A stretch of DNA of 64,000 bases from Candidatus Gastranaerophilales bacterium (GCA_028696075.1 JAQVHS010000003.1:121639-185638); one strand, 5' to 3'; shown: positions 1,238-47,884, numbered from the stretch's first letter. Program-made: numbers and translations. Notes: generated from the letters alone by a model not told the origin.

Positions 1238-2917
1238 ATGAAAATATCACAACCCATAGACATACTAAAATATAATAAACAAGCAAAATCAGATAACAAC
1301 GAAACAACTTTTAAAAATGCTGCTTTACTCACAGCGCCGTTTATTGCTATAAACAGGCATGAACTGATTGGTCTTGCTGCTATTGATGTAACTTCAATGG
1401 GCTTGCCAAGAACTATCATTGACTTTACCAGAAATACGTACGCAGGTATGGAAACAGCTTTCAGGGAATTTTCTTCAACTCTTAATCTGAGCTGGATAGG
1501 GTTATCAGGGCTATTAACCGCAGGTTTATTGGCAATACCTATAAAAAAGAAGTATGATGTAGACTTCAAGGTAATTACAGCCGACAGCGACACTGTCGAT
1601 ACTTTTGCAAAAGCATTTCATAAAATAGTGAATAAAAATCCGGCTGCTTCTCAAAAAGAGCTTGCCGAAGAATTATTAAACACTGTTTTTGCCGATGTAA
1701 AGGGCTGGGCAGGTAACAGCAAAATGAGTACTTCTGTCTTACATTCACTGTCCTGCGAAAATAAAAATGCAATAGTTAAAACACTTTTGCAAGAAATAGA
1801 AAATAACAAAAAATTTGCATTAAAAGGAGATGTTGCTTATAAGCTGCTTGCACAAATGAACTTTGATATTCCTTCTACGGGCAATCTTATCGCTAAAATT
1901 GACGGCAAAGAGCTTATGGCAGAGGGTAAATATTTTATCAATGATGCTTATTCTCTTACTAAAGCATTTATACAGAAGAATGTTGTAGAACAATTCGCAG
2001 GAAGTGCGGATACAGCTTCCAATAAATTCCTCAAAAGTTTTTCAAAACTGGCTGTAGGTAAGACTATATTAGGTTTAACTTTAATCAGTGGCATAGGTTT
2101 TTCTATACAAAAATTCAATACCTATATGACTAAAAAGCGCACAGGTGTGAGCGGTTTTGTCGGTGATCCCAATTACAAAGCACAATCTGCCAATGTAAGT
2201 AATGATAATAAAACTCAGGAAAAACAAAAGAGTATCCTGCCTCATAAGCTGGTTACGGCTTCCGTAATAGGATTTTTCGTATTCAAAACAATCGGCCCGA
2301 AAAACCCAGGGGATTTTCTCAAGAAAATACAGTTTAAAAGTTATCTTCCTACATTAGACCAAATAAAAGTCGTCTACGGAACTACTATTATAGGGCGATT
2401 GTTAGCCGCAAGAAATAAAGATGAAGTTCGGGAAACTGCTTTCAGAGATTTCTTAGGCTTTACAAATTTCTTATTATTAGGCGCTTTAGTAACAAAACTG
2501 TACGTGAACTGGAAAGATAAATCCTTAATTAATTATGATGAAAAAGTACACGGAAAAGGCTTCTTAAATTGGATAAAAAATTCAAGCATTAAATCTCCCG
2601 AAGAAATAATCAATTCAGGATTAAAACATAATGTCATACAAGACAATAAACTTCTGCCTGTAAAACAGCTGTTCAAAAATAACTGGATAAAACCCGAAGG
2701 CGAAATTGCCAAAAGACTTTCTGTTACTAATACTTCTAAACTGATAGGATTGTTATATTCCTGCATTGCGCTGGGTATTGCGGTTCCTTTGATTAACAAA
2801 TGGATAACAAATAGGAAAACCGCTGCAAAATCCGCTGTAACAATTGCAGAAGTGCAACCGTCTCAGGAAACTAAAAATAAAGCGGTTTCAGAATTTTTAA
2901 AAGCTTCCTTCAAATAA
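1238..2917 (+). CDS. Multi-pass membrane protein of unknown function (paralog of the preceding gene)
   Basis: 559-aa ORF starting 1 nt after the previous stop. The C-terminal ~300 aa are colinear with the upstream protein (KKRTGVSGFVGDPNY, FRDFLGFTNFLLLG, GLLYSCIALGIAVPLINKW). I recognise no family. Confidence 0.6.
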   Translation: MKISQPIDILKYNKQAKSDNNETTFKNAALLTAPFIAINRHELIGLAAIDVTSMGLPRTIIDFTRNTYAGMETAFREFSSTLNLSWIGLSGLLTAGLLAIPIKKKYDVDFKVITADSDTVDTFAKAFHKIVNKNPAASQKELAEELLNTVFADVKGWAGNSKMSTSVLHSLSCENKNAIVKTLLQEIENNKKFALKGDVAYKLLAQMNFDIPSTGNLIAKIDGKELMAEGKYFINDAYSLTKAFIQKNVVEQFAGSADTASNKFLKSFSKLAVGKTILGLTLISGIGFSIQKFNTYMTKKRTGVSGFVGDPNYKAQSANVSNDNKTQEKQKSILPHKLVTASVIGFFVFKTIGPKNPGDFLKKIQFKSYLPTLDQIKVVYGTTIIGRLLAARNKDEVRETAFRDFLGFTNFLLLGALVTKLYVNWKDKSLINYDEKVHGKGFLNWIKNSSIKSPEEIINSGLKHNVIQDNKLLPVKQLFKNNWIKPEGEIAKRLSVTNTSKLIGLLYSCIALGIAVPLINKWITNRKTAAKSAVTIAEVQPSQETKNKAVSEFLKASFK

Positions 2918-17930: not shown

Positions 17931-19267
17931 CCCCCCAAATTCTTGACAAAACCGGGTAAATCCGTAGCCTCATTAGGTCCGCAAATAATATTAAATTCAG
18001 GCAGCTCTTCTTTTATTTCCTCGAGTAAATCCGAAGCAAACCCGGGGATAATAAGATTATTATGCGAAACTTTTTTATTCAGTCCGGCTGCTCTGACACT
18101 TTTTGCTATAATTTCACCCGTAAATTTTGAAGCAGACCAGGCAGTAAGCACGCTCATTCCGTCAGAATCCGTTATCACAAGATAACTGCCGTCGGGTATA
18201 TTTTCAAGCTCATTTACTACGGAAAAATATGTAAGAGCAAAATTTGTTGTCACAAAAACCGGTGAATTAGGCTGCGGTTCATTGATTTCATATAATTTTG
18301 GCTCTACCTGCAAAGGTTTTTGGGGGTCGGTATAAATATTTTGCCTCAAAGTAATCAACGTTGTCATCAAAGCTCTGTCAAACTCGTCAAATATCAAAAG
18401 CCCGGTATATTTACAGACTAAAGCCGATGCTTTAACCGTATCAAGCGCAATATTCCCCGTAGTATTAAATTCTATCATCACGGGAAAGCCTAAAGGTTCA
18501 TATTTTTTTTCGATTGCACTGCGCCTAATCATTGTCAAAGGTTCAATAATACTGCTGTCAATCTCCTGATGAAGTGATAAAACTATCTCCTTAACGCCTT
18601 TTTCGAGCAGATTTGCAGAAGCTTCGGCAAGGTTCTCGAAGGTTGAAGCATTTACAACAACAGGGCAGGAATATTCTTTATGTAACTTCGTAAGCTGTTC
18701 TGTGGCTGCATCTTTCAAATATATAAGAGGATTTTTAACGGTAGTATCATCCAAGACCTCCACCATATTTTCATAATTATCTGTAATTAAAATCAGAGGG
18801 ATTTCTAAAGCTGCAACGGCAAGCGCTGTTTGTTTAAAATTTTTGCCGCCGTCAAACAGTGCAACGGCATCAACATTAAAAGTTTCTCCCACTCTGTCTA
18901 TTGAAAATTTTTGTATATCAGCTAATTTCTTATCAAATTCGATATCTGCGCTGTTAAGCTTCATTGCAAAAACAGTTTGATTAACAAAAGTTTTATCGTG
19001 GCGAAACATTACATTTTCATCGCCCATTATAAGCTCATTTGGAGAATGACCGAATGTTACGGCTTGCTGCGGTTTCCTGTTTTCAGAAGCAAATAAGGCT
19101 TTTAACTCTTCGTCTAAATGCGGGCAAAGGTTCATATTTATATCATTCTTTGCAAGCTTCATTGCAAATGCCATACAAGTTGAGCAGCCGCATTCTTTGC
19201 AGTTTGCTTCGGGTGTTTTTTTACCGCCGGGAAGAAATTTAAAAATTTGAATACCTGATAATGCCAT
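17927..19267 (-). CDS. acsC: Corrinoid iron-sulfur protein large subunit (AcsC/CdhE-like)
   Basis: The N-terminus MALSGIQIFKFLPG...NCKECGCSTCMAFAMKLA...CP matches the AcsC [4Fe-4S] motif and leader. Its length of 446 aa is typical. The start overlaps the acsD stop (TAATG). Confidence 0.8.
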   Translation of the reverse strand: MALSGIQIFKFLPGGKKTPEANCKECGCSTCMAFAMKLAKNDINMNLCPHLDEELKALFASENRKPQQAVTFGHSPNELIMGDENVMFRHDKTFVNQTVFAMKLNSADIEFDKKLADIQKFSIDRVGETFNVDAVALFDGGKNFKQTALAVAALEIPLILITDNYENMVEVLDDTTVKNPLIYLKDAATEQLTKLHKEYSCPVVVNASTFENLAEASANLLEKGVKEIVLSLHQEIDSSIIEPLTMIRRSAIEKKYEPLGFPVMIEFNTTGNIALDTVKASALVCKYTGLLIFDEFDRALMTTLITLRQNIYTDPQKPLQVEPKLYEINEPQPNSPVFVTTNFALTYFSVVNELENIPDGSYLVITDSDGMSVLTAWSASKFTGEIIAKSVRAAGLNKKVSHNNLIIPGFASDLLEEIKEELPEFNIICGPNEATDLPGFVKNLGG

Positions 19268-20166
19268 TAATTCTCTCCCGTAAATACTTTCAAAGCTTCT
19301 ATTACTTCAGGGTGCCATAATACGAGAATATCAGCACCTGCATTCATAACAGCGGAAGCCGTAGCAGCTTCCCAAGCTACGGCACGATCTTTTAAACCGC
19401 CATAGCTCGGTGAAAAATCGTCGCTGCGGGCTTCTTTAGACTTCCAGGACTCTTCGCCGGCAAATACTATCACAGGCATATTCAAAGTTTCATCACCGTC
19501 AAGCCCCGCTAATTTTGTCCGTTCTATGATACTGTAGCCGTAATCCAAACCATATCCCAAAGCCCCCATATTAGGGTCAATCAGTATTCTATCCCTGCTT
19601 ATACCTTCTTCGTTTATTAAGATATTCAGCTCTTTTGCAAGGTTTATATCTATCGGCGTTCTGCCGATTATATAGTGATTAGTGTTTTTTAAAGGCTTTG
19701 AAATCTCTCTGTAATTGTCTTGCTCCGCTATGCCAAAAATACAATCTCTGTCTGCTATAGCTATAAGTTCAGGTAGCAATATTGCATCAAGTTCTTTTTT
19801 GTTAGCGCCTGTAACTATGAGTTCTTTTTTTGTAAGCCTTAATATTTCTTCAAAAAGTTTTTTTGCTTTAGGGATTTGGGCTTCGTCTTCTATATTAAAT
19901 TTAAGCGCCAAAAAATCAGAGTTGACTTTTTCCGCTTTAACCGCCCATTTTACCATATCAGATAACAAATCACACCGGTAATCCCTTAATACAGGCGAAT
20001 AATTCTTGGGCAAATTCATCAAAACTTCAAGCGCAAAAAGAGGCTTCGTATTACCTTTCTCCGACGAGATAAAAGGTAACGAGCAAACCTCAGGGGTGCG
20101 AATTTTCCCCGTATTTACAGGTCTTATTGATGATTTAAAAGTCTTTAACGGCAAAGTATAACTCAT
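19267..20166 (-). CDS. acsD: Corrinoid iron-sulfur protein small subunit (AcsD/CdhD-like)
   Basis: 299-aa TIM-barrel-like protein, translationally coupled upstream of acsC. I recognise the size and position as AcsD. The call rests mainly on context plus general similarity. Confidence 0.65.
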   Translation of the reverse strand: MSYTLPLKTFKSSIRPVNTGKIRTPEVCSLPFISSEKGNTKPLFALEVLMNLPKNYSPVLRDYRCDLLSDMVKWAVKAEKVNSDFLALKFNIEDEAQIPKAKKLFEEILRLTKKELIVTGANKKELDAILLPELIAIADRDCIFGIAEQDNYREISKPLKNTNHYIIGRTPIDINLAKELNILINEEGISRDRILIDPNMGALGYGLDYGYSIIERTKLAGLDGDETLNMPVIVFAGEESWKSKEARSDDFSPSYGGLKDRAVAWEAATASAVMNAGADILVLWHPEVIEALKVFTGEN

Positions 20167-20167
20167 A

Positions 20168-20947
20168 TTATTTCGTTTTTAAACTCTCTTTTGCATTGTT
20201 CCATAAACTGTCAAATTCTTCAAAAGAATACTCTTGAAGCGGTTTATCGGCAAGGCTCTCCATCTGCCTGAATCTTTTTGCAAATTTTTTATTGGCTTTT
20301 GCAAGCGCCAATTCAGGATTAATCTTGTGCCATCTTGCAAGATTGACCATAGCAAACAAAATATCGCCGATTTCTTCTTCCTGATTTTCTTTATCATCTT
20401 TTACAACAGCAGATTTAAACTCTTCAAATTCACTCTCAATACATTGATACAGACTGTTCAAATTTGGCCACTCAAAACCTGCTTTAACAGCTTTTTTGCT
20501 TAGTTTGTAAGCACACATAAGCGCCGGCAGAGAAAAGGGGATTCCATCTAAAACAGACTTGCGCTCGGGTTTTTCTTCCTTTTTTATAACTTCCCAGTTG
20601 TCAATTATATCTTTGGTAGAAGTTACCTTTGTATCGCCGAAAACATGCGGATGCCTTCTGATAAGTTTTTCGCTTATTCCCTGTGCAACATCTTCAATGT
20701 TAAAATACCCGCCCTCTTTAGCAATTTGGGAATGCAAAACAACCTGCAACAAAACATCACCCAATTCTTCCTGCAATGCTTTCATATCATTTTCATCGAT
20801 TGCATCTAAAGCTTCATAAGTTTCTTCAATAAAATTCTGCTTGAGCGAAGTATGGGTTTGCTCTCTATCCCACCGGCAACCGCCCGGAGAACGCAAAGTA
20901 TTTATTATATTTATCAAATTTTGTAAATTATTGTTATTATTGTTCAT
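20168..20947 (-). CDS. mazG: Nucleoside triphosphate pyrophosphohydrolase MazG
   Basis: Tandem MazG domains: CRWDREQTHTSLKQNFIEETYEALDAI, EELGDVLLQV and a second EEIGDILFAMVNLARW. Confidence 0.9.
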   Translation of the reverse strand: MNNNNNNLQNLINIINTLRSPGGCRWDREQTHTSLKQNFIEETYEALDAIDENDMKALQEELGDVLLQVVLHSQIAKEGGYFNIEDVAQGISEKLIRRHPHVFGDTKVTSTKDIIDNWEVIKKEEKPERKSVLDGIPFSLPALMCAYKLSKKAVKAGFEWPNLNSLYQCIESEFEEFKSAVVKDDKENQEEEIGDILFAMVNLARWHKINPELALAKANKKFAKRFRQMESLADKPLQEYSFEEFDSLWNNAKESLKTK

Positions 20948-21018: not shown

Positions 21019-22908
21019 ATGGAAATAAGATGTAACAATTTTAACAAAATAGCTAAAACACCAAATTTTTCTGCTCAAAACGCACCCGAAAAGTCTAAAC
21101 AGCCTGATAAATTGCCATCTGATAAAACCCTTGATAATACCACCTGGAGTGCTTTTATGAAACATCAAATCCAAACCCAAACTCAAGTTGTACCTAACTT
21201 AACAGAAGAAAAGCTTGATAAAATTTTAAACGAAGAAGTAAGAACAATTATTCTAAACCCCCTGGAGCAATATAATAACCTGAAAGAAGGCGACCAACAA
21301 GCCCTCAAGCACCTTGTTAAGGCGGGGCATATCTTAAATAAAGTATTTATGAAACAAGAACACGAAAAGGGTACAAAATTCATTGAAGAGCTTACCAAGA
21401 AAGCTAACGAGGGTAATAAACCCGCTCAAAAAACTCTTGAAGTATATAAAATATTTAACGGAATTCAGGATGAAAGAAAAGAAACAAACTTCTTAATCAA
21501 AGGTGAAAAACTGGCTGACGGAAAGAATTTTTACCCTTCGAATGCAACTCCCGAAGAAGTTGCACAATATCTGAAAGACAATATTAATGAAGCATCTGAT
21601 ATTTTATCAAGTAACACCGTGGTAAAAAAAGAAGGCAATAAATTCGTAGCTATTCCCTACCAAACAACGTATAAAGAAGAATTTGAAGAAATTGCAAAAG
21701 AACTTTTAGAAGCAGCGAAAACATCTACCCACGAGGGATTCACAGCATATCTTAAATTGCAGGCAAAAGCCCTTACCTCGCTTGACCCTGAAGATGGCTA
21801 CAAAGCCGATGTTGCCTGGACAAAACTTTCTGACTCGCCGTTAGAGTTAACCATCACAAGGGAATCTTACGATGACCAATTTACAGGCAAAATATTAGAG
21901 GACAAAGCCCTTCAAAATATGCTTCTTAAGAATAATATAGAGGGGCATTCAAAAGACATGCTGGGTATAAGGATAGGTATTGTTGACCAAAAAGCCGGCG
22001 CAGAGCTTGCTGATTACAAAAATCATCTTAAAGATTTTTCTAAATTTATGCCGTTATCTGAAACCTACAAACAATCTACCGACGGCGAAAATGCACAAGA
22101 AGCAGTTAAACAAACGCTCGTGGATGTTGATTTGGTTATGCTGGCAGGTGATAGCAGAACTTCTCGCCCGGGGATGACAGTAGCGCAAAACCTTCCCAAC
22201 TCTGACAAATTATCCGTAAAACGCGGACATGGAAGCCGCAACGTATTCCACCGCGATATCAGAAAAAGCTACGACCCTGTTGTGAGGGAACAGTTTTTAA
22301 CCCAACTGGTAGAACAATCACAAAGAAACCTGTACTCAAACGAAGCAGACCATTTATTTACCATTGCTCATGAACTTACCCACTCCTTGGGACCTATGAA
22401 AACAAAAGACGGGCTGGATAAAAAATCATCTTTAGGCAGCTGGGGCGATGCGATAGAAGAAGCAAAAGCCGACTTGGGCGGCATATTAATGAGCAAGTAT
22501 TTCACAGAAATCGGCAAATATACACCTAAACAGCTTGATGAAATTTATTTCACATGGGCAGCAGACCTGATGCCGCAGGAAGAACCTTCAAAAGCACAAG
22601 CCCATAGACTTAGGGCGGTAGCTCAATTTAACTACCTAAAAGAATACGGGGCAATAAATTTTGAAGAAAACGGAAAACTATCAATAAATAAAGAAGTTTT
22701 TCCTGAAGCAGTAAAAAATATGCTTACAGAAATAATAACGCTTCAACTGGACGGAAATGCAAAAACAGCAGATAAATTTATGTCTAAATACTGCGTTTGG
22801 ACAAAAGAACTGCAATATGCTTCTGAAATTCTGAAATCCATGAAGCCTAAAATATACAGAAAACTCGATACAGCTTTGGCTGATAAATTGCTGTCCGATA
22901 AAAATTAG
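21019..22908 (+). CDS. M49 (dipeptidyl-peptidase III)-like zinc metallopeptidase, pentapeptide HExxH variant
   Basis: HELTHSLGP is followed 28 aa later by EEAKADLGG, which mirrors the M49 HExx(x)H...EExxA[ED] zinc site. The N-terminus carries the Asn-rich leader discussed in the findings. Confidence 0.5.
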   Translation: MEIRCNNFNKIAKTPNFSAQNAPEKSKQPDKLPSDKTLDNTTWSAFMKHQIQTQTQVVPNLTEEKLDKILNEEVRTIILNPLEQYNNLKEGDQQALKHLVKAGHILNKVFMKQEHEKGTKFIEELTKKANEGNKPAQKTLEVYKIFNGIQDERKETNFLIKGEKLADGKNFYPSNATPEEVAQYLKDNINEASDILSSNTVVKKEGNKFVAIPYQTTYKEEFEEIAKELLEAAKTSTHEGFTAYLKLQAKALTSLDPEDGYKADVAWTKLSDSPLELTITRESYDDQFTGKILEDKALQNMLLKNNIEGHSKDMLGIRIGIVDQKAGAELADYKNHLKDFSKFMPLSETYKQSTDGENAQEAVKQTLVDVDLVMLAGDSRTSRPGMTVAQNLPNSDKLSVKRGHGSRNVFHRDIRKSYDPVVREQFLTQLVEQSQRNLYSNEADHLFTIAHELTHSLGPMKTKDGLDKKSSLGSWGDAIEEAKADLGGILMSKYFTEIGKYTPKQLDEIYFTWAADLMPQEEPSKAQAHRLRAVAQFNYLKEYGAINFEENGKLSINKEVFPEAVKNMLTEIITLQLDGNAKTADKFMSKYCVWTKELQYASEILKSMKPKIYRKLDTALADKLLSDKN

Positions 22909-22945
22909 CATACAGAATTATATATAATAGAATGCAAAACCCGCT

Positions 22946-24268
22946 CTAAGGCATTATAAAGTCGCCTCCGGAAGAGCTGTCTTCTGTAAAAAACATAGAA
23001 TCAGGTTTGCTTTTATAATTCCTATCTGTTCTGTAATACTCAAGAAGAGGGGTATTTTCACCGATATATCTGGCATTATCATTAAGACCGCCCAATTTCC
23101 TTGCCAGTTCTTCGTCTTTTTTAAGATTTTCTTGTTCTTTGTCAGTTAATTTTAGCCCGGAGGATAAAATAGCGCTTGCAAAAACAAGGTTATTGAATCC
23201 CTCATAGTCTTTTGCTTTTGCTAATGCCTTATTCACAACAGCTTCAACCATCTCGGGTTTATATGCCAAGCCGCTGACCCTGACACCTTCTATAATTGCA
23301 TTATAGTCAATTTTTTTAGTTTTTGCTTCTGTTTTTACACCTGATTTTTTAATATAGTGGTTAATCATATCTGCCAAATCAAAAAGCTCGACAGCGCCCA
23401 CAGGAATTCTTAAATCAGTTCTTCCGTTTCTCAGCAAATCTTTTGAAGCTGAGGATAACTCATTTGCCGTGGATAAGAAAATTACACCCTTATCCTTACA
23501 ATTATTAACCATTCCCAGTAATCTTGCCGTTCTTATGAGGTGGGCATTAGCCGAGTCCGTGCTTGCAGCCGTCTTATCAATTTCATCCAAAAATACTATT
23601 GTGTATTTTTTATTGCCGGATTCTCTGTACCTTTGTTCCGCTTCTGCAAAAACTTGCTGCATATTTGTGATATCTTTTTCATCATTGCCTGTGAATTTAA
23701 GTTCTGCAAAATGTCCGCCTTTAGATTCATAATGTTCACCCAGCGCTTTAGCTAAAAATGTTTTGCCGGTACCTTTAGGTCCAAAGAAGCAAATTCCGTT
23801 AGGCAGACTGCAATGTGCGCTTAAATCTCCATCCATCGCCTGTAATAAAGGCAATAATACATTCCTGATCAGCCCCAGTTTTAAAAGATTATTACCTGCT
23901 ATTTTATTCAAACCTACTTCTTGATCGTTCATATTTGGTGTTCTGACCCTATCTAATTCATTTTCATAGAGCTGCTTTATCTCTTGTCTTGAAAGTTGAT
24001 AGCAATTGTCTTCAAATATCCTTTCCCGGTCGTATTCAATTTGGCTTTTTAACAGTTTTTTGGTTTTATCGCTGCAACTGTCAATCAAAACCCTGATATA
24101 TCTGACAGGCGCAAAAATCGGGTCAAAACTCCGGGAAGTAAAAGACAGCCGGTTAATTTCATTGTTGGGGCAAGATTGTGAGGCAATAGCAGTATTATTA
24201 TTGCCATTACCGCTAATGTTATTTTTATTAATATTAATAGAATTAATTCGTACCGGAGTAATATACAT
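22946..24268 (-). CDS. Classical AAA ATPase (intact motifs), last gene of the 4-gene AAA cassette
   Basis: Walker A FFGPKGTGKTFL, Walker B IVFLDEIDK, second region of homology LLRNGRTDLRIPVG. It is a paralog of 26358..27677 and shares the C-terminal ARKLGGLNDNARY. No obvious TM segment. Confidence 0.8.
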   Translation of the reverse strand: MYITPVRINSININKNNISGNGNNNTAIASQSCPNNEINRLSFTSRSFDPIFAPVRYIRVLIDSCSDKTKKLLKSQIEYDRERIFEDNCYQLSRQEIKQLYENELDRVRTPNMNDQEVGLNKIAGNNLLKLGLIRNVLLPLLQAMDGDLSAHCSLPNGICFFGPKGTGKTFLAKALGEHYESKGGHFAELKFTGNDEKDITNMQQVFAEAEQRYRESGNKKYTIVFLDEIDKTAASTDSANAHLIRTARLLGMVNNCKDKGVIFLSTANELSSASKDLLRNGRTDLRIPVGAVELFDLADMINHYIKKSGVKTEAKTKKIDYNAIIEGVRVSGLAYKPEMVEAVVNKALAKAKDYEGFNNLVFASAILSSGLKLTDKEQENLKKDEELARKLGGLNDNARYIGENTPLLEYYRTDRNYKSKPDSMFFTEDSSSGGDFIMP

Positions 24269-24279
24269 AACCTTCTCTT

Positions 24280-25281
24280 CTAACTATTTATAGGTTTTAC
24301 ATTTGTTAACCTGTCGGTTTCTGCCTGCTTGATTAAAGCTTCGTCTATATTGAACTTAAAATCAATTCTTCCTGTTCTGGTACAAGATTTATCAAGAGTA
24401 TTGATATCTTGAGCAGTTGTCAAAGTAAAAATACCACGATCATCACCGCAGTGATGTGTACGGGTATTCCATATTCCTCTTGTAGTTGGACCATTTTCTT
24501 TTAAAATGAAATCCACATCCTCCATTACTATAAGGGTCAATTTTTGCTGCTCCCGGTAGCGTTTTTCTCCATTTTCAAAAGCATCAGAGATGGTTTCTCC
24601 TATTTTTTTATCTTTAGTAGATATATGTTCAACCACTATATCTTGTTTTTTCGCTTCTGATATAAAATAGTCTAATAATTTTTTCTTTTCTTCTTGATTT
24701 CTACCATAAATCATTACACCGTTAGCTGGACAAAAATCTGACTTTTTGCAAATCTCAATAACATCAGTAAATTTTTCGGGATTTTTTAATGCTCTTACAT
24801 ATTTTAACTTTTCAGCAGGAATCATAATGTTTAATCTGTACACATCCCTGCAATAATCTAAATCAAAATGCCTGTTATTCTCAAACTTGGCATATATTCT
24901 ATCATCGAGAGCTCCTATCTCATCCCAAAGCTTTGACATCCCCGGGATTTCATTCATTTTTCTAAGAAACTCGGGTACAAAAGTTTCTTTAGGAACAAGT
25001 TTACCTGCTTCATCCTTTATTGTTTCTATTCCTTTAAACCTGTAATATACTTTTCTGGCTGCATTTGATATTTTTTGGCGGTTTTTAATAAGCAAAACTG
25101 CTCCCAATAGAGTACCTGCTGCTAATGCTATTTTGCCGCCTATTCCCATAGTTGCAGCAGGCCGGGCAGTTTCAGCAGGTGGCAGGGGCTTGTTTGCAAA
25201 AGTAACATTAGACCTGCTGTGATTTATATTATTAGCTCTGGTATTGCGATTATAGATATTTATATTAGTTTTTAATATCAT
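24280..25281 (-). CDS. Membrane-anchored, lid-less AAA-like protein with degenerate Walker A (tandem duplicate 1)
   Basis: One TM helix (IGGKIALAAGTLLGAVLLI). The Walker A position reads GVMIYGRNQEEKKKLL, the Walker B-like motif is LIVMEDVD, and the SRH-like motif is RTGRIDFKF. The protein ends ~25 aa later. Confidence 0.65.
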   Translation of the reverse strand: MILKTNINIYNRNTRANNINHSRSNVTFANKPLPPAETARPAATMGIGGKIALAAGTLLGAVLLIKNRQKISNAARKVYYRFKGIETIKDEAGKLVPKETFVPEFLRKMNEIPGMSKLWDEIGALDDRIYAKFENNRHFDLDYCRDVYRLNIMIPAEKLKYVRALKNPEKFTDVIEICKKSDFCPANGVMIYGRNQEEKKKLLDYFISEAKKQDIVVEHISTKDKKIGETISDAFENGEKRYREQQKLTLIVMEDVDFILKENGPTTRGIWNTRTHHCGDDRGIFTLTTAQDINTLDKSCTRTGRIDFKFNIDEALIKQAETDRLTNVKPINS

Positions 25282-25347
25282 GACTCTAAACCATATATTA
25301 CTGTCATATTAAAATGAAATATATACAAATTTGCTATTTCAAACATA

Positions 25348-26352
25348 TTATTTTACATTTTTTAACTTATCGGTTTCTGCCTGCTTGATTAAAGCTTCGT
25401 CTATATTGAACTTAAAATCAATTCTTCCGCCTCTGATAGCAGATTGATCAAGAGTATTGATATCCTGGGCGGTTGTCAGGGTAAAAATGCCTCTCTCTCC
25501 GCAGTGGTTTGTGCGCGTATTCCATACTCCGCCAATTACCGAGCCGTCTTTTTTAAAGACATCATCCACGTCCTCCATTACTATAAGGGTCAATTTTTGC
25601 TGCTCCTGATACCTTTGCTTTGCATTTGCAAAAGCATCAGATATAATCCCACCTATTTGTTGGTCTTGTTCTGTAACACCTTTGGTAGATATATGTTCTA
25701 CTACTACATCTTGTTTTTTTGCTTCTGATATGAAGTAATCTAATAATTTTTTCTTTTCTTCTTGATTTTTACCGTAAATCATTACACCATTAGACGGACG
25801 AAAATCTGACTTTTTACAAAGCTCTATAACATCTGCAAATTCTTGAGGATTTTTTAATGCTCGTACATACCTTAACTTTTCAGCAGGAATCATAATGTTT
25901 AATCTGTACACATCTCTGCAATAATCCATATCAAAATGCCTGTTATTCTCAAACTTGGCATATATTCTATCATCAAGAGTTCCTATCTCATCCCAAAGCT
26001 TTGACATTCCGGGGATTTTATTCATTTTTCTAAGAAACTCAGGTACAAAAGTTTCTTTAGGAACAAGTTTACCTGCCTCATCCTTTATTGTTTCTATTCC
26101 CTTAAACCTGTAATATACTTTTCTGGCTGCATTTGATATTTTTTGGCGGTTTTTAATAAGCAAAACTGCTCCCAATAGAGTACCTGCTGCTAATGCTATT
26201 TTGCCGCCTATTCCCATAGTTGCAGCAGGCCGGGCAGTTTCAGCAGGGGGCAGGGGCTTGTTTGCAAAAGTAACATTAGACCTGCTGGGATTTATACTAT
26301 CAATTTTTTTATCGCAGGTATTTGTATTAATCTGATTTAATTTAATTATCAT
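25348..26352 (-). CDS. Membrane-anchored, lid-less AAA-like protein with degenerate Walker A (tandem duplicate 2)
   Basis: It shares 89 consecutive identical residues with 24280..25281 (SRSNVTFANK...EFLRKMN). Motifs are GVMIYGKNQEEKKKLL, LIVMEDVD and RGGRIDFKF. Confidence 0.65.
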   Translation of the reverse strand: MIIKLNQINTNTCDKKIDSINPSRSNVTFANKPLPPAETARPAATMGIGGKIALAAGTLLGAVLLIKNRQKISNAARKVYYRFKGIETIKDEAGKLVPKETFVPEFLRKMNKIPGMSKLWDEIGTLDDRIYAKFENNRHFDMDYCRDVYRLNIMIPAEKLRYVRALKNPQEFADVIELCKKSDFRPSNGVMIYGKNQEEKKKLLDYFISEAKKQDVVVEHISTKGVTEQDQQIGGIISDAFANAKQRYQEQQKLTLIVMEDVDDVFKKDGSVIGGVWNTRTNHCGERGIFTLTTAQDINTLDQSAIRGGRIDFKFNIDEALIKQAETDKLKNVK

Positions 26353-26357
26353 ATCAT

Positions 26358-27677
26358 CTAGCCCTCTTGGTTAACAACGTCTTCATCTGAGTATCTTGCA
26401 TTTGTATTAAGACCGCCAAATTTTCTTGCCATTATTTTCTCGTCATCAAACTGTTTTTGCACCGCTTCATCAAATATAATATCCTGAGCCTGAATTGATT
26501 TTAGCAATTTTTCCGTACTTAAATATCCTTTTCTGATATTTCTAGTTGCCATTGTAACAGCTTGATTAATATCTTCCGGTTTATAGGCTAATTTTTTATT
26601 TTTAAATGCTTCTGTTATAACTGCATAATCTAGTTCATCAGTTGTTTTATTTGATTGTTTTATATAAAAATTAACCATATCGGCAAAATCGCAAATATCA
26701 ACCGAACCTATGGGGATACGCATATCAGCCCTGCCGTTGCGCAATAAATCAGGGGTAATATATGACAACTTGTTTGATGTAGAGATAAATATTACTCCCC
26801 TGTCTTTGCAATTATTCACAAGTTTCAATAATTTTGCGTTTCTCACGGGGTCATGAAATTCCATACCTTCTTTTCTGGCATTTTTATCTGCTTCATCTAA
26901 AAGGATTATAGTGTATTGTGTTTTACCTGATTTTTCAAACCTTTTTTGCGCATCGCCAAACATTTTTTCCATTGTTGCTATATCTTTTTCGGTATCTTTA
27001 ACAAACTCTAGTTCTTTAAAACAACCGCCTTTTTCTACATAATGTCCAGCCAGGGCTGTAGCAATAAAGCTTTTGCCTGTTCCTCTCGGACCAAAGAAAC
27101 ATATTCCGTTAGGCAGCATATCATGCGCGCTTGAATCACCGTCCATTACCTGCAACAGCGGTAACAACAGATTTCTTGCCAAGCCTAATTTTAAAAGCTC
27201 GTTGCCTATAACTTGGTTTAAACCTACTTCTTGACCTGTGCCGTTGGCAGGAATTGTAACTTTTTCCAGTTCGTTTATGTATTCTTTTTCCGCTTCTTTA
27301 GAAGAAATTTGACCGTTATTAGCATCAACTTTGGCTTTTTTATCATTCAGCATTTGTATTTTTAGCGCTTCTGCCTTGGCTTTTCTTTTATTATCAACCC
27401 AGTCACTGATTGCAAGCACAGCGTATACACCGCCGCCTACCAAAGCCACACCTGCTGCACAGATAGCAAGTGAAATCGCTGCAGCACAAATCAGCTCCCA
27501 TATCAGTATTCCCAGCCCTGTAGTAACGGGTTCAATCCCAAAAGAAATCTGTTTTGGCGTTGTTTTTGAATTAAAAGAATCGTATTGATTATTTAACTTA
27601 GTTAATAATCTGTTTTCGGAAGTTTTTGTTTGCAAACTTTGATTAGCATTAAAAAATGCGGTCTGGTTAACTCTCAT
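26358..27677 (-). CDS. Membrane-anchored classical AAA ATPase (intact motifs), first gene of the cassette
   Basis: Long hydrophobic N-terminal region (GLGILIWELICAAAISLAICAAGVALVGGGVYAVLAI). Walker A FFGPRGTGKSFI, Walker B IILLDEADK, SRH LLRNGRADMRIPIG, C-terminal ARKFGGLNTNARY. Confidence 0.8.
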   Translation of the reverse strand: MRVNQTAFFNANQSLQTKTSENRLLTKLNNQYDSFNSKTTPKQISFGIEPVTTGLGILIWELICAAAISLAICAAGVALVGGGVYAVLAISDWVDNKRKAKAEALKIQMLNDKKAKVDANNGQISSKEAEKEYINELEKVTIPANGTGQEVGLNQVIGNELLKLGLARNLLLPLLQVMDGDSSAHDMLPNGICFFGPRGTGKSFIATALAGHYVEKGGCFKELEFVKDTEKDIATMEKMFGDAQKRFEKSGKTQYTIILLDEADKNARKEGMEFHDPVRNAKLLKLVNNCKDRGVIFISTSNKLSYITPDLLRNGRADMRIPIGSVDICDFADMVNFYIKQSNKTTDELDYAVITEAFKNKKLAYKPEDINQAVTMATRNIRKGYLSTEKLLKSIQAQDIIFDEAVQKQFDDEKIMARKFGGLNTNARYSDEDVVNQEG

Positions 27678-36824: not shown

Positions 36825-37541
36825 ATGGAAAATACAAATCAAATCACAGCATTTACATTAGCGGAAGTATTGATAACACTAATGGTTATCGGAATTCTTG
36901 CAATGGTAACTATTCCAGGCATTATGCAAGCTTGGGAAGAAAGAGTTACTGTTTCCAAATTAAAAGAAACGTACTCTACATTGCAACAAGCATTCAAATT
37001 GGCTGAGATAGAGAACGGACAACCTGAAACGTGGGGATTCTCTTATAGTAATTATAGTGTAACTTGGGACAAAATGCTTCCATACCTTAAAACATCACAA
37101 AATTGTAAATTGACTGCCGGAGGATGTGCAGCCGATGGAATAAAACTATTAAACGAGAAACCTTACATAAATATTAATTCTGATAACACATGGTATAAAT
37201 TTACACTCGTTTCAGGTGTAAATATAATGTCAGACAGACCATCAGGACAGTGTACAGGCTCCTTTTATTCAGATGGACAACCTTCTTGTTTTAGGCTTTT
37301 TGTAGATATAAACGGACTGAAAGGACCAAATCAATTCGGAAAAGATGTATTTGCTTTTTCTATGACTAAACGTGGTTTTATACCTTGGGGAGGTTATCAT
37401 ACTCCCGGGGATTATATGTATCACCAAAATTCCTGCACAGGTCCTGATAACATTGGAAGCAGCATAGAAGGATTAGGTTGTGCACGTTGGGTCATTGAGC
37501 GCGGCAATATGGACTATCTGCATGAGGTTACAACTTGGTAG
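36825..37541 (+). CDS. Type IV pilin/pseudopilin-like protein (prepilin N-terminal cleavage/methylation domain)
   Basis: MENTNQITA|FTLAEVLITLMVIGILAMVTIPG with Glu at +5. 238 aa, with C-terminal Cys pairs. Confidence 0.75.
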   Translation: MENTNQITAFTLAEVLITLMVIGILAMVTIPGIMQAWEERVTVSKLKETYSTLQQAFKLAEIENGQPETWGFSYSNYSVTWDKMLPYLKTSQNCKLTAGGCAADGIKLLNEKPYININSDNTWYKFTLVSGVNIMSDRPSGQCTGSFYSDGQPSCFRLFVDINGLKGPNQFGKDVFAFSMTKRGFIPWGGYHTPGDYMYHQNSCTGPDNIGSSIEGLGCARWVIERGNMDYLHEVTTW

Positions 37542-44010: not shown

Positions 44011-47000
44011 TTAAATTTCGTCTTCGTCGTCCAAAACTTGAAGTTCCGGGGCTCCGAACATTCCTTCGATTTCTTCAAGAATGGCAGAAGGCTTTCTTAT
44101 GTTAGCTCTTGCTGCTTTTCTCATAGCTTCTTCTTTTTCTTCAGAAGCATTTTGTAAGTGGTAGTAACCCGTACCTGCAGGAATCAAACGACCGATAATA
44201 ACGTTTTCTTTCAAACCTCTTAGCTGGTCTTTTTTACCTTCTACAGCTACTTCTGTTAATATTCTTGTTGTTTCCTGGAATGAAGCTGCCGAAATGAAGC
44301 TTTCCGTATTCAAGCTGGCTTTTGTAATACCAAGCAATACAGGGCTAAATTGAGCTAGAGCTTTACCTTCGGCTGTAACTTGTTCGTTTTGAACCTGAAC
44401 GTTATAAGATTCAGCCAATTCACCGGGCATTAATTGGGTATCACCTGCATCATCAATCTTAACTTTTCTGGTCATCTGACGAACAATAACTTCAATATGT
44501 TTATCGGCAATATCAACACCTTGTGAACGATATACCCTTTGTACCTCATCAACCAGATATTGTTGTACTGCTTCAGTTCCGTTTAATCTTACAATATCAT
44601 GGGGATTTAAAGGACCGCTTGTTAAAGCCTTACCTTTAGCAACTTTTTGCTTATCCGAAACAATAATGCTTGAATCAATCGTATACTTAATTTCACTTCT
44701 TCCGTTTTCTGTTACGAAGAATAAACGCGGAGCGCCTTCTTCGTATTCAATTTCAACAGTTCCGTCATCTTCCGCCAAAATAGCGCTTTCTTTAGGTTTT
44801 CTGGCTTCAAGAAGCTCTTCTACCCTAGGAAGACCCTGTACGATATCGCCTGTTTTTTGTCTTTCAAACACCAACGTTGCAAGTAAATCACCGCGCAGTA
44901 CCAAACCATGCTGTTCTACCAAAAGCTGAGTTGCCGGGCTTATCAAACAAGGACGTCCGTTTCTTATTACAACTTCACTTTTAGTTGATTTCAATATTTG
45001 ACCTGATACAGGAGCTTTTTCCCCGCTTTCGGTAATAATTTGGTCAGCCTTCACAAGGGTGCCTTCTTTTACCGAAAGTTTTGATTTAACAGGAACTGTT
45101 GTTTTATTCTTGTTTGATATAACAAGAAGTCTTCTTGCATCTTCTTTCTTTTTAACTTTTACAACACCTTCATTAATAGCTAATACCTGAGTTTTTGATA
45201 CAGGTGTCTTAGGTTTAATGTGTTGTCCGTCTTCCACAAGAAGTTCTGTTTGCATTGCACCCGCATTACCTGAAGTAGAATCAATTTCTCTTCTGATAAT
45301 AAGGTTTTCCAAGACCACAACCTTCAAATTGTCTGTGTCTTTATCCAGTTCTACCAATCCTTTTAGGTGATTTAAGTAGCCTTGCATAGTAAGAACTAAA
45401 CTTGTTCTTGTAAGACATGCGCCTTCTACATTTCTGATACGGCTGCCATCTCTGTATTGAAGCTGCGTAACAGGTACAATATCAATTTGACTGTCAGTAG
45501 AATTAAATTTAATTGAAACTTCTCTTGGTCCGATTTCAAATTCCTGAATAGGACGAAGAATTATATCAATATTTCTATCGGGAATTTCTGTTTCTTCTTC
45601 GATTTCCAAGTCTTCGTCTTCTATATCAAGAGTATTGTCATCAGCTTCATTAGATAAAATACATACTATGCTTTTTACCTTTGCCTTGACACCTTTAGCA
45701 ACTTCCTGACCGGCTTCAACAACTTCACCATCGTCAACTTTTAAATTATTTAAAGTATCAATGGTATGCATATCACCGGGACGAATAACAATTTCATGGA
45801 TAACTTCGTTGTATTCCTTGAACTCAACAATACCGTCGATATGAGCATAAATATCTTTAACAATCTCAGTACCTGATTTCACGTACGTACCTGATTGAAC
45901 CATTTTTAAATTCACATCTTTGTTTATTTGCTGAACTTCCTCAGGAACAAATACAACTCTTCCCGGATTAGTTATAATCTGATTTTCGTCAACCTCAATA
46001 CCGTCATAGCGAATTTCACCGCTCGTAGTTACAATATTTCTATCGTCAATAAGTTCTGCGATAATCATACCGTTCTCAACGATAATATCTTCAGGTGATT
46101 TGATAATATATTTTTCACCTGTTTTTGTAACATGCCACAAGGTTTCTTTCTTGGTTGTTTCTAAAACGGCGTTCTTTGGGGTAATTGAAGCAATTACAAT
46201 GGTTAATTCTTTGCCGCTTACAATCTTTTTAATTGTATTGCCTTTGGCAGATATTTGTTCAATTTCAATGTTATTACCTATACGAACCTCGCCGCCATGT
46301 TCTGAGATTGTAGTAGTTTCAGCCAAAACATCGCCCTTTTTAACTTCTTTGGCATCGTCGACAAGGATTTTAGAGCCGCCGGGTAAATTATAAACATCAC
46401 CCGAAAGTACCCAAATCGTACCGCTTTTGTTGGCAGTTCTTGAGATATTGCCTTGTCTGTCACGTTTTTCATCAACGCTGAAACCGTCAAAGACAATTTC
46501 TCCGCTTAAATCGGAAGTAATATCTTTTGTTGCTTTTTCCGTAAGACGAGCGCCATCACCTTGGCTCATTGTAGGCTCAAATTCAGCAATAATAGTACCC
46601 TTTTTAATTTTATCGCCTTCATTTACGAAAAGAGTAGCTCCGTAAGGAAGTTTGATTGCATGAACTTTGCCTGATTTATCTTCAATTTTTAAATCCACAG
46701 CTTTGGTTGTAACTTGTACTACATCACCGTGGCGGGTTCTCATATCACGTGTAGCCACTTTGGAAGTTACTTTGCCTTCAAATTCGGAATTTATTTGACG
46801 CATAGCAGCAGCACCTTTAAATACACCGCCTGTGTGGAAGGTTCTCATGGTAAGTTGTGTACCGGGCTCACCAATACTTTGGGCTGCAATAATACCTATT
46901 GCTTCTCCGATATCTACGGGTTTATTGGTAGTTAAAGACCAGCCATAGCATAACTGGCAAGCGCCAAATTCCAATTCACAAGTCAATGGAGAACGCACTA

Positions 47001-47865: not shown

Positions 47866-47884
47866 TTATTATTACCTCTATCTT

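What the first reader, a model, noticed from the sequence alone, without database searches (positions are those of the whole stretch)
21019..27677. Recurrent Asn-rich N-terminal leader with a hydrophobic-[STA]-F-[AGT]...P motif on functionally unrelated proteins
At least five proteins in this window start M-x-[IV]-x(2-6)-N and run through an Asn/Thr/Ser-rich stretch. They then reach a short conserved element 20-50 residues in:
- 24280 gene: MILKTNINIYNRN...SNVTFANKP
- 25348 gene: MIIKLNQINTNT...SNVTFANKP
- 26358 gene: MRVNQTAFFNAN...KQISFGIEP
- 22946 gene: MYITPVRINSININ...NRLSFTSRSFDP
- 61382 gene: MRIQRVNNTYTN...SDMAFAGKIKP

Weaker versions occur on the M49-like peptidase (MEIRCNNFNKIAKTPNFSAQNAP) and on the membrane protein at 1238 (MKISQPIDILKYNK...ETTFKNA).

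These proteins otherwise belong to different families: AAA, AAA-like, papain-like, peptidase and polytopic membrane protein. In several of them the leader is followed by a TM helix.

The leader is not a Sec, Tat, lipoprotein or class III (pilin) signal. It could be a lineage-specific sorting, processing or tethering signal.
Basis: seen in the sequence. Interest (0 to 1): 0.6.

Follow-up and report, generated by a model that had tools for sequence, protein, structure and literature searches.

The report
Shared N-terminal tail of AAA paralogs
Four neighbouring genes of a gut Melainabacterium (Gastranaerophilales) encode related membrane-anchored AAA ATPases and inactive copies that share a conserved, disordered, asparagine-rich N-terminal tail with two short motifs; the tail is real and conserved, but in this window it is shared mainly through common descent, not by unrelated proteins.

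Summary
However, four of the five "unrelated" proteins (22946, 24280, 25348, 26358) are tandem paralogs of one lineage-restricted AAA / pseudo-AAA family.

Their leader is a disordered tail with three parts:
- Box 1 at the extreme N-terminus, M-x-[IV]-[STN]-x-x-x-[IV]-x-[SN]-x-N.
- A variable Asn/Ser/Thr/Gln/Lys-rich spacer.
- Box 2, [VIP]-[ST]-F-G-x-[DE]-P, usually just before a hydrophobic anchor.

Both boxes are conserved in orthologs at 43-57% identity. Scoring matrices trained only on this family do not lift the other window proteins clearly above background. 61382 is borderline, and its Phe is not positionally conserved in orthologs. 1238 and the M49 peptidase 21019 are at background.

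In related contigs the same boxes do recur on non-homologous proteins encoded beside the AAA cluster. These are an HExxH membrane protein and a 201-aa protein, and more weakly a lipoprotein precursor and a small 89-119 aa protein. The tail therefore behaves as a portable module tied to that cluster.

It is not a Sec, Tat, lipoprotein or prepilin signal. A profile search of 1.84 billion proteins found it nowhere else. My best guess is a docking or assembly tail for the AAA complex; this is unproven.

The parts
26358..27677 (-). AAA ATPase (439 aa) with an N-terminal tail and a hydrophobic anchor.
   Evidence: PF00004 E=2e-16. Closest solved structures are VAT/Cdc48/p97. Orthologs P0007-P0012 are 47-57% identical.
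27525..27677 (-). Leader of the 26358 gene, aa 1-51. Box 1 is MRVNQTAFFNAN (27639-27677). Box 2 is KQISFGIEPV (27525-27554).
   Evidence: Box 2 is SFG[IM][DE]P in all TM-bearing orthologs P0007-P0012 (degraded in TM-less 22946). AF2 pLDDT is about 25-30 over residues 1-54, indicating disorder. Coordinates were checked.
27402..27524 (-). Hydrophobic anchor of the 26358 protein, aa 52-92.
   Evidence: KD19 peak of 2.62. AF2 places helices at 55-76 and 83-119 with low confidence.
25348..26352 (-). Pseudo-AAA paralog (334 aa). Leader is aa 1-34 (26251-26352), Box 2 is SNVTFANKPL (26251-26280), and the TM segment is aa 46-66 (26155-26217).
   Evidence: No Pfam hit. hhalign to the AAA family gives 91% probability, with GKNExEKKK at the Walker A position. 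TM. Coordinates.
24280..25281 (-). Pseudo-AAA paralog (333 aa). Leader is aa 1-33 (25183-25281), Box 2 is SNVTFANKPL (25183-25212), and the TM segment is aa 45-65 (25087-25149).
   Evidence: About 82-84% identical to 25348. Nucleotides 61-480 of the two genes are 97-100% identical, but the first 60 nt are only 65% identical.
22946..24268 (-). AAA ATPase paralog (440 aa) that kept the tail but lost the hydrophobic anchor. Leader is aa 1-51 (24116-24268). Box 1 is MYITPVRINSININ. Box 2 is degraded to SRSFDPI.
   Evidence: PF00004 E=1e-15. No TM-like segment. The alignment shows a deletion of about 23 aa where orthologs have the anchor.
21019..22908 (+). M49 / DPP III-like peptidase with an N-terminal extension of about 84 aa. 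It is not a credible leader carrier.
   Evidence: PDB 6eom E=1e-43 over residues 85-599. Box 1 p=0.26 and Box 2 p=0.63.
61382..62233 (+). 283-aa protein of unknown fold with a conserved Cys...His C-terminal domain and a weak TM segment. It is a borderline leader carrier (aa 1-29, 61382-61468).
   Evidence: Box 1 p=0.037 and Box 2 p=0.147. The Phe is not positionally conserved in orthologs. No Pfam, PDB or fold match.
1238..2917 (+). 559-aa polytopic membrane protein of unknown family. Its resemblance to the leader is at background level.
   Evidence: Box 1 p=0.16 and Box 2 p=0.22. Its paralog, L033:1934-3574, whose 3' part is window 85-1236, shares M-x-[IV]-S...[ET]TFK[NG].

Best explanation
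Window 22946-27677 is a tandem array of four paralogs of a Gastranaerophilales-restricted family. Two are classic-clade AAA ATPases and two are Walker-A-dead pseudo-AAA copies.

Their common 'leader' is an inherited, intrinsically disordered N-terminal tail of 30-60 aa, rich in Asn/Ser/Thr/Gln/Lys and net positively charged. It carries two short linear motifs under purifying selection:
- Box 1 at the extreme N-terminus, M-x-[IV]-[STN]-x-x-x-[IV]-x-[SN]-x-N.
- Box 2, [VIP]-[ST]-F-G-x-[DE]-P or [VI]-[ST]-F-x-G-x-P. It usually abuts the hydrophobic membrane anchor.

Within the window the recurrence is therefore homology by descent. The matches in 1238 and 21019 are compositional or chance resemblance, and the match in 61382 is borderline.

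In related genomes the same tail has been transferred to a few non-homologous proteins encoded beside the AAA cluster. It therefore acts as a portable module linked to that cluster.

Inferred mechanism (not shown): the tail is a flexible docking or assembly element. The two boxes would bind a common partner or each other, for example by beta-strand addition. This would gather the AAA and pseudo-AAA subunits and their accessory proteins (peptidase-like and others) into one membrane-associated complex. Box 2 would also cap the start of the anchor helix at the membrane interface.
For: Shown:
- AAA identity and paralogy.
- Conservation of both boxes with a variable, indel-rich spacer across orthologs and paralogs in six other contigs.
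- Synonymous variation in Box 1.
- Well-supported start codons.
- Predicted disorder of the tail.
- The cluster is conserved as 3-5 tandem paralogs.
- Family-trained matrices pick out two non-homologous neighbours. L044:3867-4874 (HELEH motif) scores 13.1 bits on Box 1, against a null maximum of 8.2 in 9,106 windows. L042:3-605 has Box 1 p=0.004 and scores 13.5 bits on Box 2, against a null maximum of 11.3. Neither has other homology to the AAA families.
- Sec-signal proteins and mobile-element proteins in the same contigs lack the tail.

Inferred: the docking and assembly role.
Against: - No direct evidence exists for any binding partner.
- Topology is unresolved. The positive-inside rule suggests N-out for the pseudo-AAA proteins but N-in for the 61382 family. 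In L042:885-1694 the tail precedes a lipoprotein signal and would be removed with it. One binding compartment does not fit all carriers.
- The sample is small and was collected through the AAA and 61382 families, so it is biased.
- The weaker carriers (lipoprotein precursor, small proteins, the 546-aa paralog) have p of only 0.001-0.07.
- An HMM of the whole leader gave only p of about 0.004-0.02 even for three of the five pseudo-AAA members; the other two were at background.
Confidence: 0.42

Rival explanations
1. The tail is a lineage-specific sorting, insertion or processing signal. Box 1 and Box 2 would be recognised by a dedicated targeting factor, insertase or peptidase. That factor would direct diverse envelope proteins to a site or route, possibly with cleavage near F-x-G.
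For: - The tail occurs on non-homologous proteins (AAA, HExxH, lipoprotein precursor, 201-aa protein) and mostly precedes a hydrophobic segment.
- In L042:885-1694 it sits upstream of a complete lipoprotein signal, in the way ESPR-type extensions precede Sec signals.
- A Peptidase_S26 gene lies in the same neighbourhood in L042.
- The architecture of N-terminal hydrophobic residues, a polar spacer of 19 aa or more, and a Phe motif parallels known bipartite export signals (PMC8983047).
Against: - AAA ATPases need cytoplasmic ATP, so the bulk of the main carriers is not exported.
- 22946, L042:3-605 and the small proteins have no hydrophobic segment.
- Ordinary secreted proteins of the same contigs use plain Sec signals without the tail.
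- In the window the non-AAA candidates do not clearly score above background; 61382 is borderline.
- Box 2 does not fit the -3/-1 rule in the F-x-G variants.
Confidence: 0.2
2. There is no shared function beyond the AAA family. Box 2 is simply the interfacial cap of the family's anchor helix (aromatic residue, Gly, acidic N-cap, Pro). Box 1 and the Asn-rich spacer reflect AT-rich, low-complexity N-termini. The few outside matches are chance, or remnants of local recombination between neighbouring genes.
For: - Box 2 directly abuts the anchor in nearly all AAA members and several pseudo-AAA members, and it is degraded in 22946, which lost the anchor.
- The genome is 37% GC, and even MazG starts MNNNNNN.
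- 61382 is only borderline, and 1238 and 21019 are at background.
- L042:3-605 and the HExxH protein show faint similarity to pseudo-AAA N-terminal regions extending beyond the boxes, with E of about 0.1. That is consistent with 5'-end recombination.
Against: - Box 1 is conserved at the amino-acid level with synonymous changes over 43-57% identity divergence.
- Box 1 is retained in the anchor-less 22946.
- The Box 1 match in the HExxH protein (MQINLSTIANNS against MQINQITLANNN) is far outside the null, and the two sequences differ at synonymous sites, so it is not a recent copy.
Confidence: 0.3
3. The tail is a flagellar type-III-like dual export signal, made of an N-terminal hydrophobic element plus a Phe-centred gate-recognition-like motif separated by a polar linker.
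For: The architecture resembles FlgD, which has 2-SIAV-5, then at least 19 residues, then 36-FLTLL-40 (PMC8983047). Some Box 1 sequences (MQINQITLAN, MRVNQTAFFNAN) look like flagellin N-termini; this comparison is from memory and is a lead only.
Against: - The carriers are membrane-anchored ATPases and membrane proteins, which are not plausible substrates of a narrow export channel.
- Box 2 does not keep the F-x-x-x-hydrophobic spacing.
- No flagellar gene is present in the window or in any fetched locus.
Confidence: 0.03
4. The leaders are artefacts of wrongly called start codons.
For: Internal Met residues exist just before the anchor in 24280 and 25348 (M45/M46), at SFG-M-DP in some orthologs, and at M22 of 61382.
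Against: - Every upstream ATG has an SD-like sequence at the proper spacing.
- Frames stay open for 30-60 codons in all paralogs and orthologs of a 37% GC genome.
- Conservation is at the protein level, with synonymous differences and in-frame indels.
Confidence: 0.03

Closest known systems
Classic-clade AAA ATPases (Cdc48/p97/VAT, FtsH, PAN, Vps4/CdvC)
   Same: - 22946 and 26358 have a PF00004 domain.
- Their best solved relatives are VAT/Cdc48/p97.
- NCBIfam hits to the FtsH, PAN and CdvC models are all far below their cut-offs.
- Like FtsH, they are anchored by an N-terminal hydrophobic segment.
- In one related genome an HExxH membrane protein with the same tail is encoded nearby.
   Different: - There is a single AAA module with no p97 N-domain, no M41 protease domain and no periplasmic domain.
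- The family-specific C-terminal tail is GGLNxNARY.
- The genes occur as 3-5 tandem paralogs that include Walker-A-dead copies.
- The N-terminal tail has no counterpart in these families.
Extended signal peptide region (ESPR) of type V secreted proteins, and YSIRK-G/S signal peptides
   Same: Each is a conserved sequence element placed N-terminal to a hydrophobic targeting segment and shared by several protein families of a lineage (ESPR: PMC2805444; YSIRK from general knowledge). In L042:885-1694 the tail precedes a full lipoprotein signal in just this way.
   Different: - There is no sequence similarity, and no Pfam hit to ESPR or YSIRK models.
- The main carriers are cytoplasmic ATPases with an uncleaved anchor, and some carriers have no hydrophobic segment.
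- The tail is much more polar and longer, and has two separated boxes.
Bipartite export signal of early flagellar subunits (N-terminal hydrophobic signal plus gate recognition motif)
   Same: Both have an extreme N-terminal small-hydrophobic element, a disordered polar linker of about 20-40 residues, and a Phe-centred short motif (PMC8983047).
   Different: The carriers here are membrane proteins. The F-x-x-x-hydrophobic spacing is not kept. No flagellar genes were seen nearby.
SHP box (F-x-x-F-S-G-x-G-x-x-L), the p97 N-domain-binding beta-strand motif
   Same: Both are short Phe/Gly motifs in a disordered region that could dock onto an AAA protein by beta-strand addition (PMC5042407). L033's ETFKGIGNLI fits F-x-G-x-G-x-x-h.
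   Different: The two strictly conserved glycines are absent from the main Box 2 form, SFG[IM][DE]P. The AAA proteins here also lack the p97 N-domain that binds SHP.

Membership tests
AAA ATPase (PF00004, classic clade) | Match to the AAA domain model above the gathering score, with Walker A GPxGxGK[ST]. | tested here: met
   22946 scores 58.8 bits and 26358 scores 61.0 bits against a cut-off of 21.2. Walker A reads GPKGTGKT and GPRGTGKS.
AAA ATPase (PF00004, classic clade) | The same test applied to 24280 and 25348. | tested here: not met
   No Pfam or NCBIfam hit. Walker A is replaced by GRNQEEKK. Homology shows only at profile level, with hhalign 91% and E=1e-6. They are degenerate paralogs, not active members.
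FtsH (TIGR01241 / M41) | Two TM segments, an AAA domain and a C-terminal HExxH M41 protease domain, scoring above the equivalog cut-off. | tested here: not met
   Scores are 34-40 bits against a cut-off of 600. These proteins have no protease domain.
Sec (type I) signal peptide | A short positive n-region, then a 10-15 residue hydrophobic core within about 30 aa of the N-terminus, then an A-x-A site. | tested here: not met
   The first 44-50 residues are polar, and the hydrophobic segment starts at aa 45-52. True Sec signals in the window look different, for example 16720 and 56539.
Tat signal peptide | Twin-arginine motif [ST]-R-R-x-F-L-K before the hydrophobic core. | tested here: not met
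   No RR is present in any leader sequence.
Lipoprotein (type II) signal | Lipobox [LVI][ASTVI][GAS]C at the end of the hydrophobic core. | tested here: not met
   None of the window carriers has one. Only L042:885-1694 has LAG|C, and there it lies downstream of the tail.
Class III (prepilin) signal | A short leader, then [GA]|F-T-L-x-E, followed by a hydrophobic helix. | tested here: not met
   Genuine examples in the window read A|FTLAEVLI (36825) and A|FTLSEVLI (12013). The leaders have no such motif.
ESPR (PF13018) / YSIRK (PF04650) | Match to the Pfam model in the N-terminal region. | tested here: not met
   No such hit at E<=0.01 for any of the eight proteins scanned.
Peptidase M49 (DPP III), for the 21019 gene | Sequence similarity to solved DPP III structures, plus an HExxxH-type zinc motif. 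| tested here: met
   6eom E=1e-43 and 5zum E=4.5e-27 over residues 85-615. AHELTHSLGP is present. Pfam itself gave no hit.
Papain-like / NlpC-P60-type peptidase, for the 61382 gene | A recognisable fold or profile match with a Cys-His catalytic pair. | tested here: inconclusive
   No Pfam, NCBIfam or PDB sequence hit. The AF2 model has mean pLDDT 55 and no significant Foldseek match. Only invariant Cys155, His161 and His229 were seen.

The most novel reading that the evidence does not exclude
The two-box Asn-rich tail is a new kind of N-terminal address tag, specific to a Gastranaerophilales lineage. It would mark the subunits and clients of a membrane-anchored, multi-paralog AAA machine. Carriers include peptidase-like proteins, a lipoprotein precursor and small soluble proteins. 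The tag would recruit them to, or feed them into, that machine.
Probability: 0.2. Interest if true: 0.7.

Novelty: new variant of a known kind. Interest (0 to 1): 0.4.

Why it matters
If the tail is a portable docking or address module, it would define a previously undescribed membrane AAA system in non-photosynthetic cyanobacterial relatives of the gut. It would also give a simple sequence handle, Box 1 plus [VI][ST]FxG, for listing that system's components.

As it stands, the main value is corrective. The apparent 'signal on unrelated proteins' in this window is largely one paralog family. The AAA / pseudo-AAA cluster itself is the real object.

Tried and rejected
- **Genome-contig scan with the full AAA alignment.** The tool chose generic Walker-A patterns, so it returned only unrelated AAA loci (L003-L032). 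The scan was wasted.
- **JGI metagenome scans.** Scans with the 546/559-aa membrane family and with an AAA-family-specific segment both found nothing.
- **IMG/VR scan with the pseudo-AAA family.** Nothing was found.
- **Leader profile against 1.84 billion representatives.** It returned only two family members and P0018, a junk translated repeat (TTFGMDPP)n. Only hits at E<=0.001 are listed, so weak carriers could not be seen.
- **Whole-leader HMM, tested by leaving families out.** It had too little power because of the variable spacer. I replaced it with separate box matrices.
- **PADLOC and PHROGs.** There were no defence-system or phage-family assignments for the cluster. Only the separate 450-aa AAA of related contigs matches phrog_15585.
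- **AF2 of 26358 and 61382.** The tails and anchors are low-confidence, so topology and the 61382 fold remain unresolved. Foldseek against the PDB gave no significant hit.
- **SHP-box idea.** Rejected as membership. Box 2 lacks the two invariant glycines, and the ATPases lack a p97 N-domain.
- **Prepilin, double-glycine and signal-peptidase-I cleavage readings of Box 2.** Rejected, because the residues around F-x-G do not fit those sites consistently.
- **Literature search on Gastranaerophilales and N-terminal signals.** Nothing relevant was found.
Full report
**Source and setting**

The window comes from a Candidatus Gastranaerophilales MAG (Melainabacteria / Vampirovibrionia). Proteins 24280, 26358 and 61382 are identical to NCBI entries with PHX18_* locus tags on a 220-kb contig. 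GC content is about 37%. A split rpoC and A|FTLAE-type prepilins fit that lineage.

**Check of the observation**

- The leaders contain 14-28% Asn, against 6% for the window's proteins, and they carry net positive charge.
- Each leader ATG has an SD-like sequence upstream, as do the leader ATGs of relatives in other contigs. The frames stay open for 30-60 codons in a 37% GC genome. Orthologs differ by synonymous changes in Box 1 and by in-frame indels in the spacer. The leaders are therefore translated, and the 'wrong start' refutation fails.
- Hydrophobic segments follow the leader in 24280 (aa 45-65), 25348 (aa 46-66) and 26358 (aa 50-92). They do not follow it in 22946 or 21019.

**What the carriers are**

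- 22946 and 26358 are classic-clade AAA ATPases (PF00004). Their nearest solved structures are VAT/Cdc48/p97.
- 24280 and 25348 are about 82-84% identical tandem copies with no Pfam hit. They are nonetheless degenerate AAA homologs. BLASTP to 26358 gives E=2e-4 over the Walker B to Arg-finger region. hhalign of the two family alignments gives 91% probability and E=1e-6 over 149 columns, with GKNExEKKK sitting where Walker A should be.
- 21019 is an M49 / DPP III homolog from residue 85 onward.
- 61382 has a conserved Cys...His C-terminal domain, but no sequence or fold match. 'Papain-like' remains unverified.
- 1238 and its upstream paralog are polytopic membrane proteins of an undescribed family. 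The 3' part of the paralog is window 85-1236, and its full length is L033:1934-3574.

**Anatomy of the leader**

Orthologs of 26358 and 22946 at 43-57% identity, plus further paralogs in six other contigs, all show the same three parts:
- Box 1 at the extreme N-terminus. Examples are MLISPVQISSINS, MQINQITLANNN, MYITPVRINSIN and MITKVSQININK.
- A variable, indel-rich polar spacer of 10-40 aa.
- Box 2. It reads [VPT]SFG[IM][DE]P in the AAA proteins, and VTFQGIP, VSFGALP, TSFMGVP or VTFANKP in the pseudo-AAA proteins.

Box 2 usually abuts the hydrophobic anchor. It is degraded (SRSFDP) in 22946, which has lost about 23 residues of anchor. AF2 gives pLDDT of about 25-30 for residues 1-54 of 26358, which indicates disorder.

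**Is the recurrence on other proteins more than chance?**

But four of its six N-terminal hits are the AAA clade and one is a false hit in an Fe-S protein.

An HMM built from AAA leaders alone scored the other families against 500 shuffles each:
- Three of the five pseudo-AAA members, p of about 0.004-0.02 (the other two, P0004 and P0005, were at background).
- 1238, p=0.024.
- 61382, p=0.43.
- 21019, p=0.8.

Separate matrices for Box 1 and Box 2, trained only on the AAA and pseudo-AAA families, gave these results for the window proteins:

| Protein | Box 1 p | Box 2 p |
|---|---|---|
| 61382 | 0.037 | 0.147 |
| 1238 | 0.16 | 0.22 |
| 21019 | 0.26 | 0.63 |

In the 61382 family the MAFAG of the window protein aligns with AVIR, AIWK and AIIQ in orthologs, so the Phe is not positionally conserved. 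Two orthologs instead begin MNIAFRGK and MKISFNGK. For the window, the claim therefore shrinks to the AAA clade.

**Portability in related genomes**

The same matrices pick out non-homologous proteins encoded next to AAA clusters elsewhere:

| Protein | Description | N-terminal sequence | Box 1 | Box 2 |
|---|---|---|---|---|
| L044:3867-4874 | 335 aa, HELEH motif, one TM | MQINLSTIANNS | 13.1 bits (null max 8.2 of 9,106) | not clearly matched (p=0.045; best window lies in the TM segment) |
| L042:3-605 | at least 201 aa, no TM | MNITSNSHISNS...SNVSFNGIP | p=0.004 | 13.5 bits (null max 11.3 of 618) |
| L042:885-1694 | leader, then complete lipoprotein signal ...LLALAG\|C; start backed by AGGAG | ...DTVSFGGG... 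| p=0.07 | p=0.018 |
| Small protein beside the cluster | 89-119 aa | MQVTFNP, MLVSFNP, MRVSFNP | p=0.001-0.009 | at background |

These proteins have no Pfam family and no significant similarity to the AAA families outside the N-terminus.

Integrase, DUF3854, HTH and Sec-signal proteins in the same contigs lack the tail. The tail is thus a portable module associated with the AAA cluster. The sample is only about 150 kb and was collected through these very families, so it is biased.

**Distribution**

The families are rare. The word-index searches of 5.8 billion clusters found five to seven homologs each. The JGI metagenome scans found none and IMG/VR found none. The leader profile found only family members in 1.84 billion representatives.

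In several relatives the cluster lies beside resolvase, N6-methyltransferase, integrase or DUF3854 genes. In the window it lies between a DPP III-like gene and maf.

**Topology**

By the positive-inside rule, the pseudo-AAA proteins have a strongly positive C-flank (KNRQK...RK...RFK), which suggests N-out/C-in. The 61382 family has the more positive N-flank, which suggests N-in. 22946 has no anchor. In the lipoprotein precursor the tail would stay cytoplasmic and be removed with the signal peptide.

Alternatively, the Gly/Ala-rich anchors could be re-entrant hairpins, which would place all tails in the cytoplasm. AF2 is not informative here. This is unresolved, and it weakens any single-compartment model.

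**Mechanism**

The steps shown are these:
- A conserved, translated, disordered bipartite tail.
- Its inheritance within a multi-paralog AAA / pseudo-AAA family.
- Its occasional presence on neighbouring non-homologous proteins.

The inferred step is its function. I favour a docking or assembly tail that gathers the AAA and pseudo-AAA subunits and accessory proteins at the membrane, with Box 2 doubling as an interfacial cap of the anchor helix (confidence about 0.4).

The rivals are:
- A lineage-specific sorting or processing signal (0.2).
- Paralogy plus composition plus chance, with no wider role (0.3).
- A flagellar-type dual signal (0.03), which matches in architecture only (PMC8983047).
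- Start-codon artefact (0.03).

**Comparison with known systems**

The tail is not a Sec, Tat, lipobox or prepilin signal, and it is not ESPR or YSIRK. Its closest analogues in logic are three:
- ESPR- and YSIRK-type conserved extensions upstream of hydrophobic targeting segments (PMC2805444).
- The bipartite signal of early flagellar subunits (PMC8983047).
- SHP-type short beta-strand motifs that dock cofactors on p97 (PMC5042407).

None of these matches in sequence or in defining features.

**Verdict**

In this window it is chiefly a family-specific tail of four AAA paralogs. Evidence that it is portable comes from related contigs and is suggestive rather than decisive. It is moderately interesting, and its function is untested.

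Noticed in passing
window 24280-25281 and 25348-26352 (- strand): The two tandem pseudo-AAA genes are 97-100% identical at nucleotides 61-480, but only 65% identical in the first 60 nt, which encode Box 1 and the start of the spacer. This looks like gene conversion that stops short of the 5' end, or divergence focused on the tail.
   Followed up: partly
L036:5788-9405; L039:2232-11054; L040:2607-5897; L046:268-8525; L001:5671-7542: In related genomes the AAA cluster lies beside a 450-aa Lon-like AAA (phrog_15585) and mobile-element genes: resolvase, N6-methyltransferase, integrase, DUF3854, phage Mu F and tail S. It may be cargo of, or a hotspot next to, an integrative element. None of these genes is in the window.
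   Followed up: partly
window 85-1236 and 1238-2917 (+); L033:1934-3574: This is a tandem pair of 546- and 559-aa polytopic membrane proteins, 29% identical, with conserved TIID[FA]TRN, RTGxSGFVG and RDFLGFxN motifs. They have no Pfam or NCBIfam family and no relatives in JGI metagenomes.
   Followed up: partly
L044:3867-4874: A 335-aa protein with an HELEH zinc-peptidase-like motif, one TM segment and a Box 1 nearly identical to that of the MQINQ-type AAA proteins. Together with the AAA genes it is reminiscent of an FtsH split into separate ATPase and protease polypeptides. No Pfam hit.
   Followed up: partly
L042:1764-3289: A TadE-like pseudopilin (RGAEVTVEIALSLGL...) and a Peptidase_S26 signal-peptidase homolog lie between the tail-bearing genes and the AAA cluster.
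   Followed up: no
window 21019-21270 (+): The DPP III / M49 homolog carries a polar N-terminal extension of about 84 aa that is absent from the solved homologs 6eom and 5zum. The purpose of the extension is unknown.
   Followed up: no
window 20168-20947 (-): The MazG-like protein begins MNNNNNNLQNLINIIN. Asn-rich N-termini also occur on housekeeping proteins of this genome, which is relevant to the compositional background.
   Followed up: no
window 44011-49600 (-); 12013-16491 (-); 36825-37541 (+): The window has a split rpoC (571 + 1284 aa), as in cyanobacteria. It also has a 1492-aa protein and a 238-aa protein with prepilin-type A|FTL[AS]EVLI N-termini.
   Followed up: no
window 17927-20166 (-): These are corrinoid iron-sulfur protein-like genes of the acetyl-CoA pathway type, with N-terminus ...CKECGCSTCMAFAMKLA. 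This assignment is by eye and was not tested against any family model.
   Followed up: no
P0018: A 314-aa 'protein' made of (HENTTFGMDPP)n repeats was the top hit of the leader profile. It is almost certainly a translated DNA repeat and not a relative.
   Followed up: yes
L048:120-3215; L050:274-3044: Orthologs of 61382 lie between a PfkB-family kinase and AnmK (anhydro-N-acetylmuramic acid kinase). This hints at a peptidoglycan-related role for the Cys/His domain.
   Followed up: no
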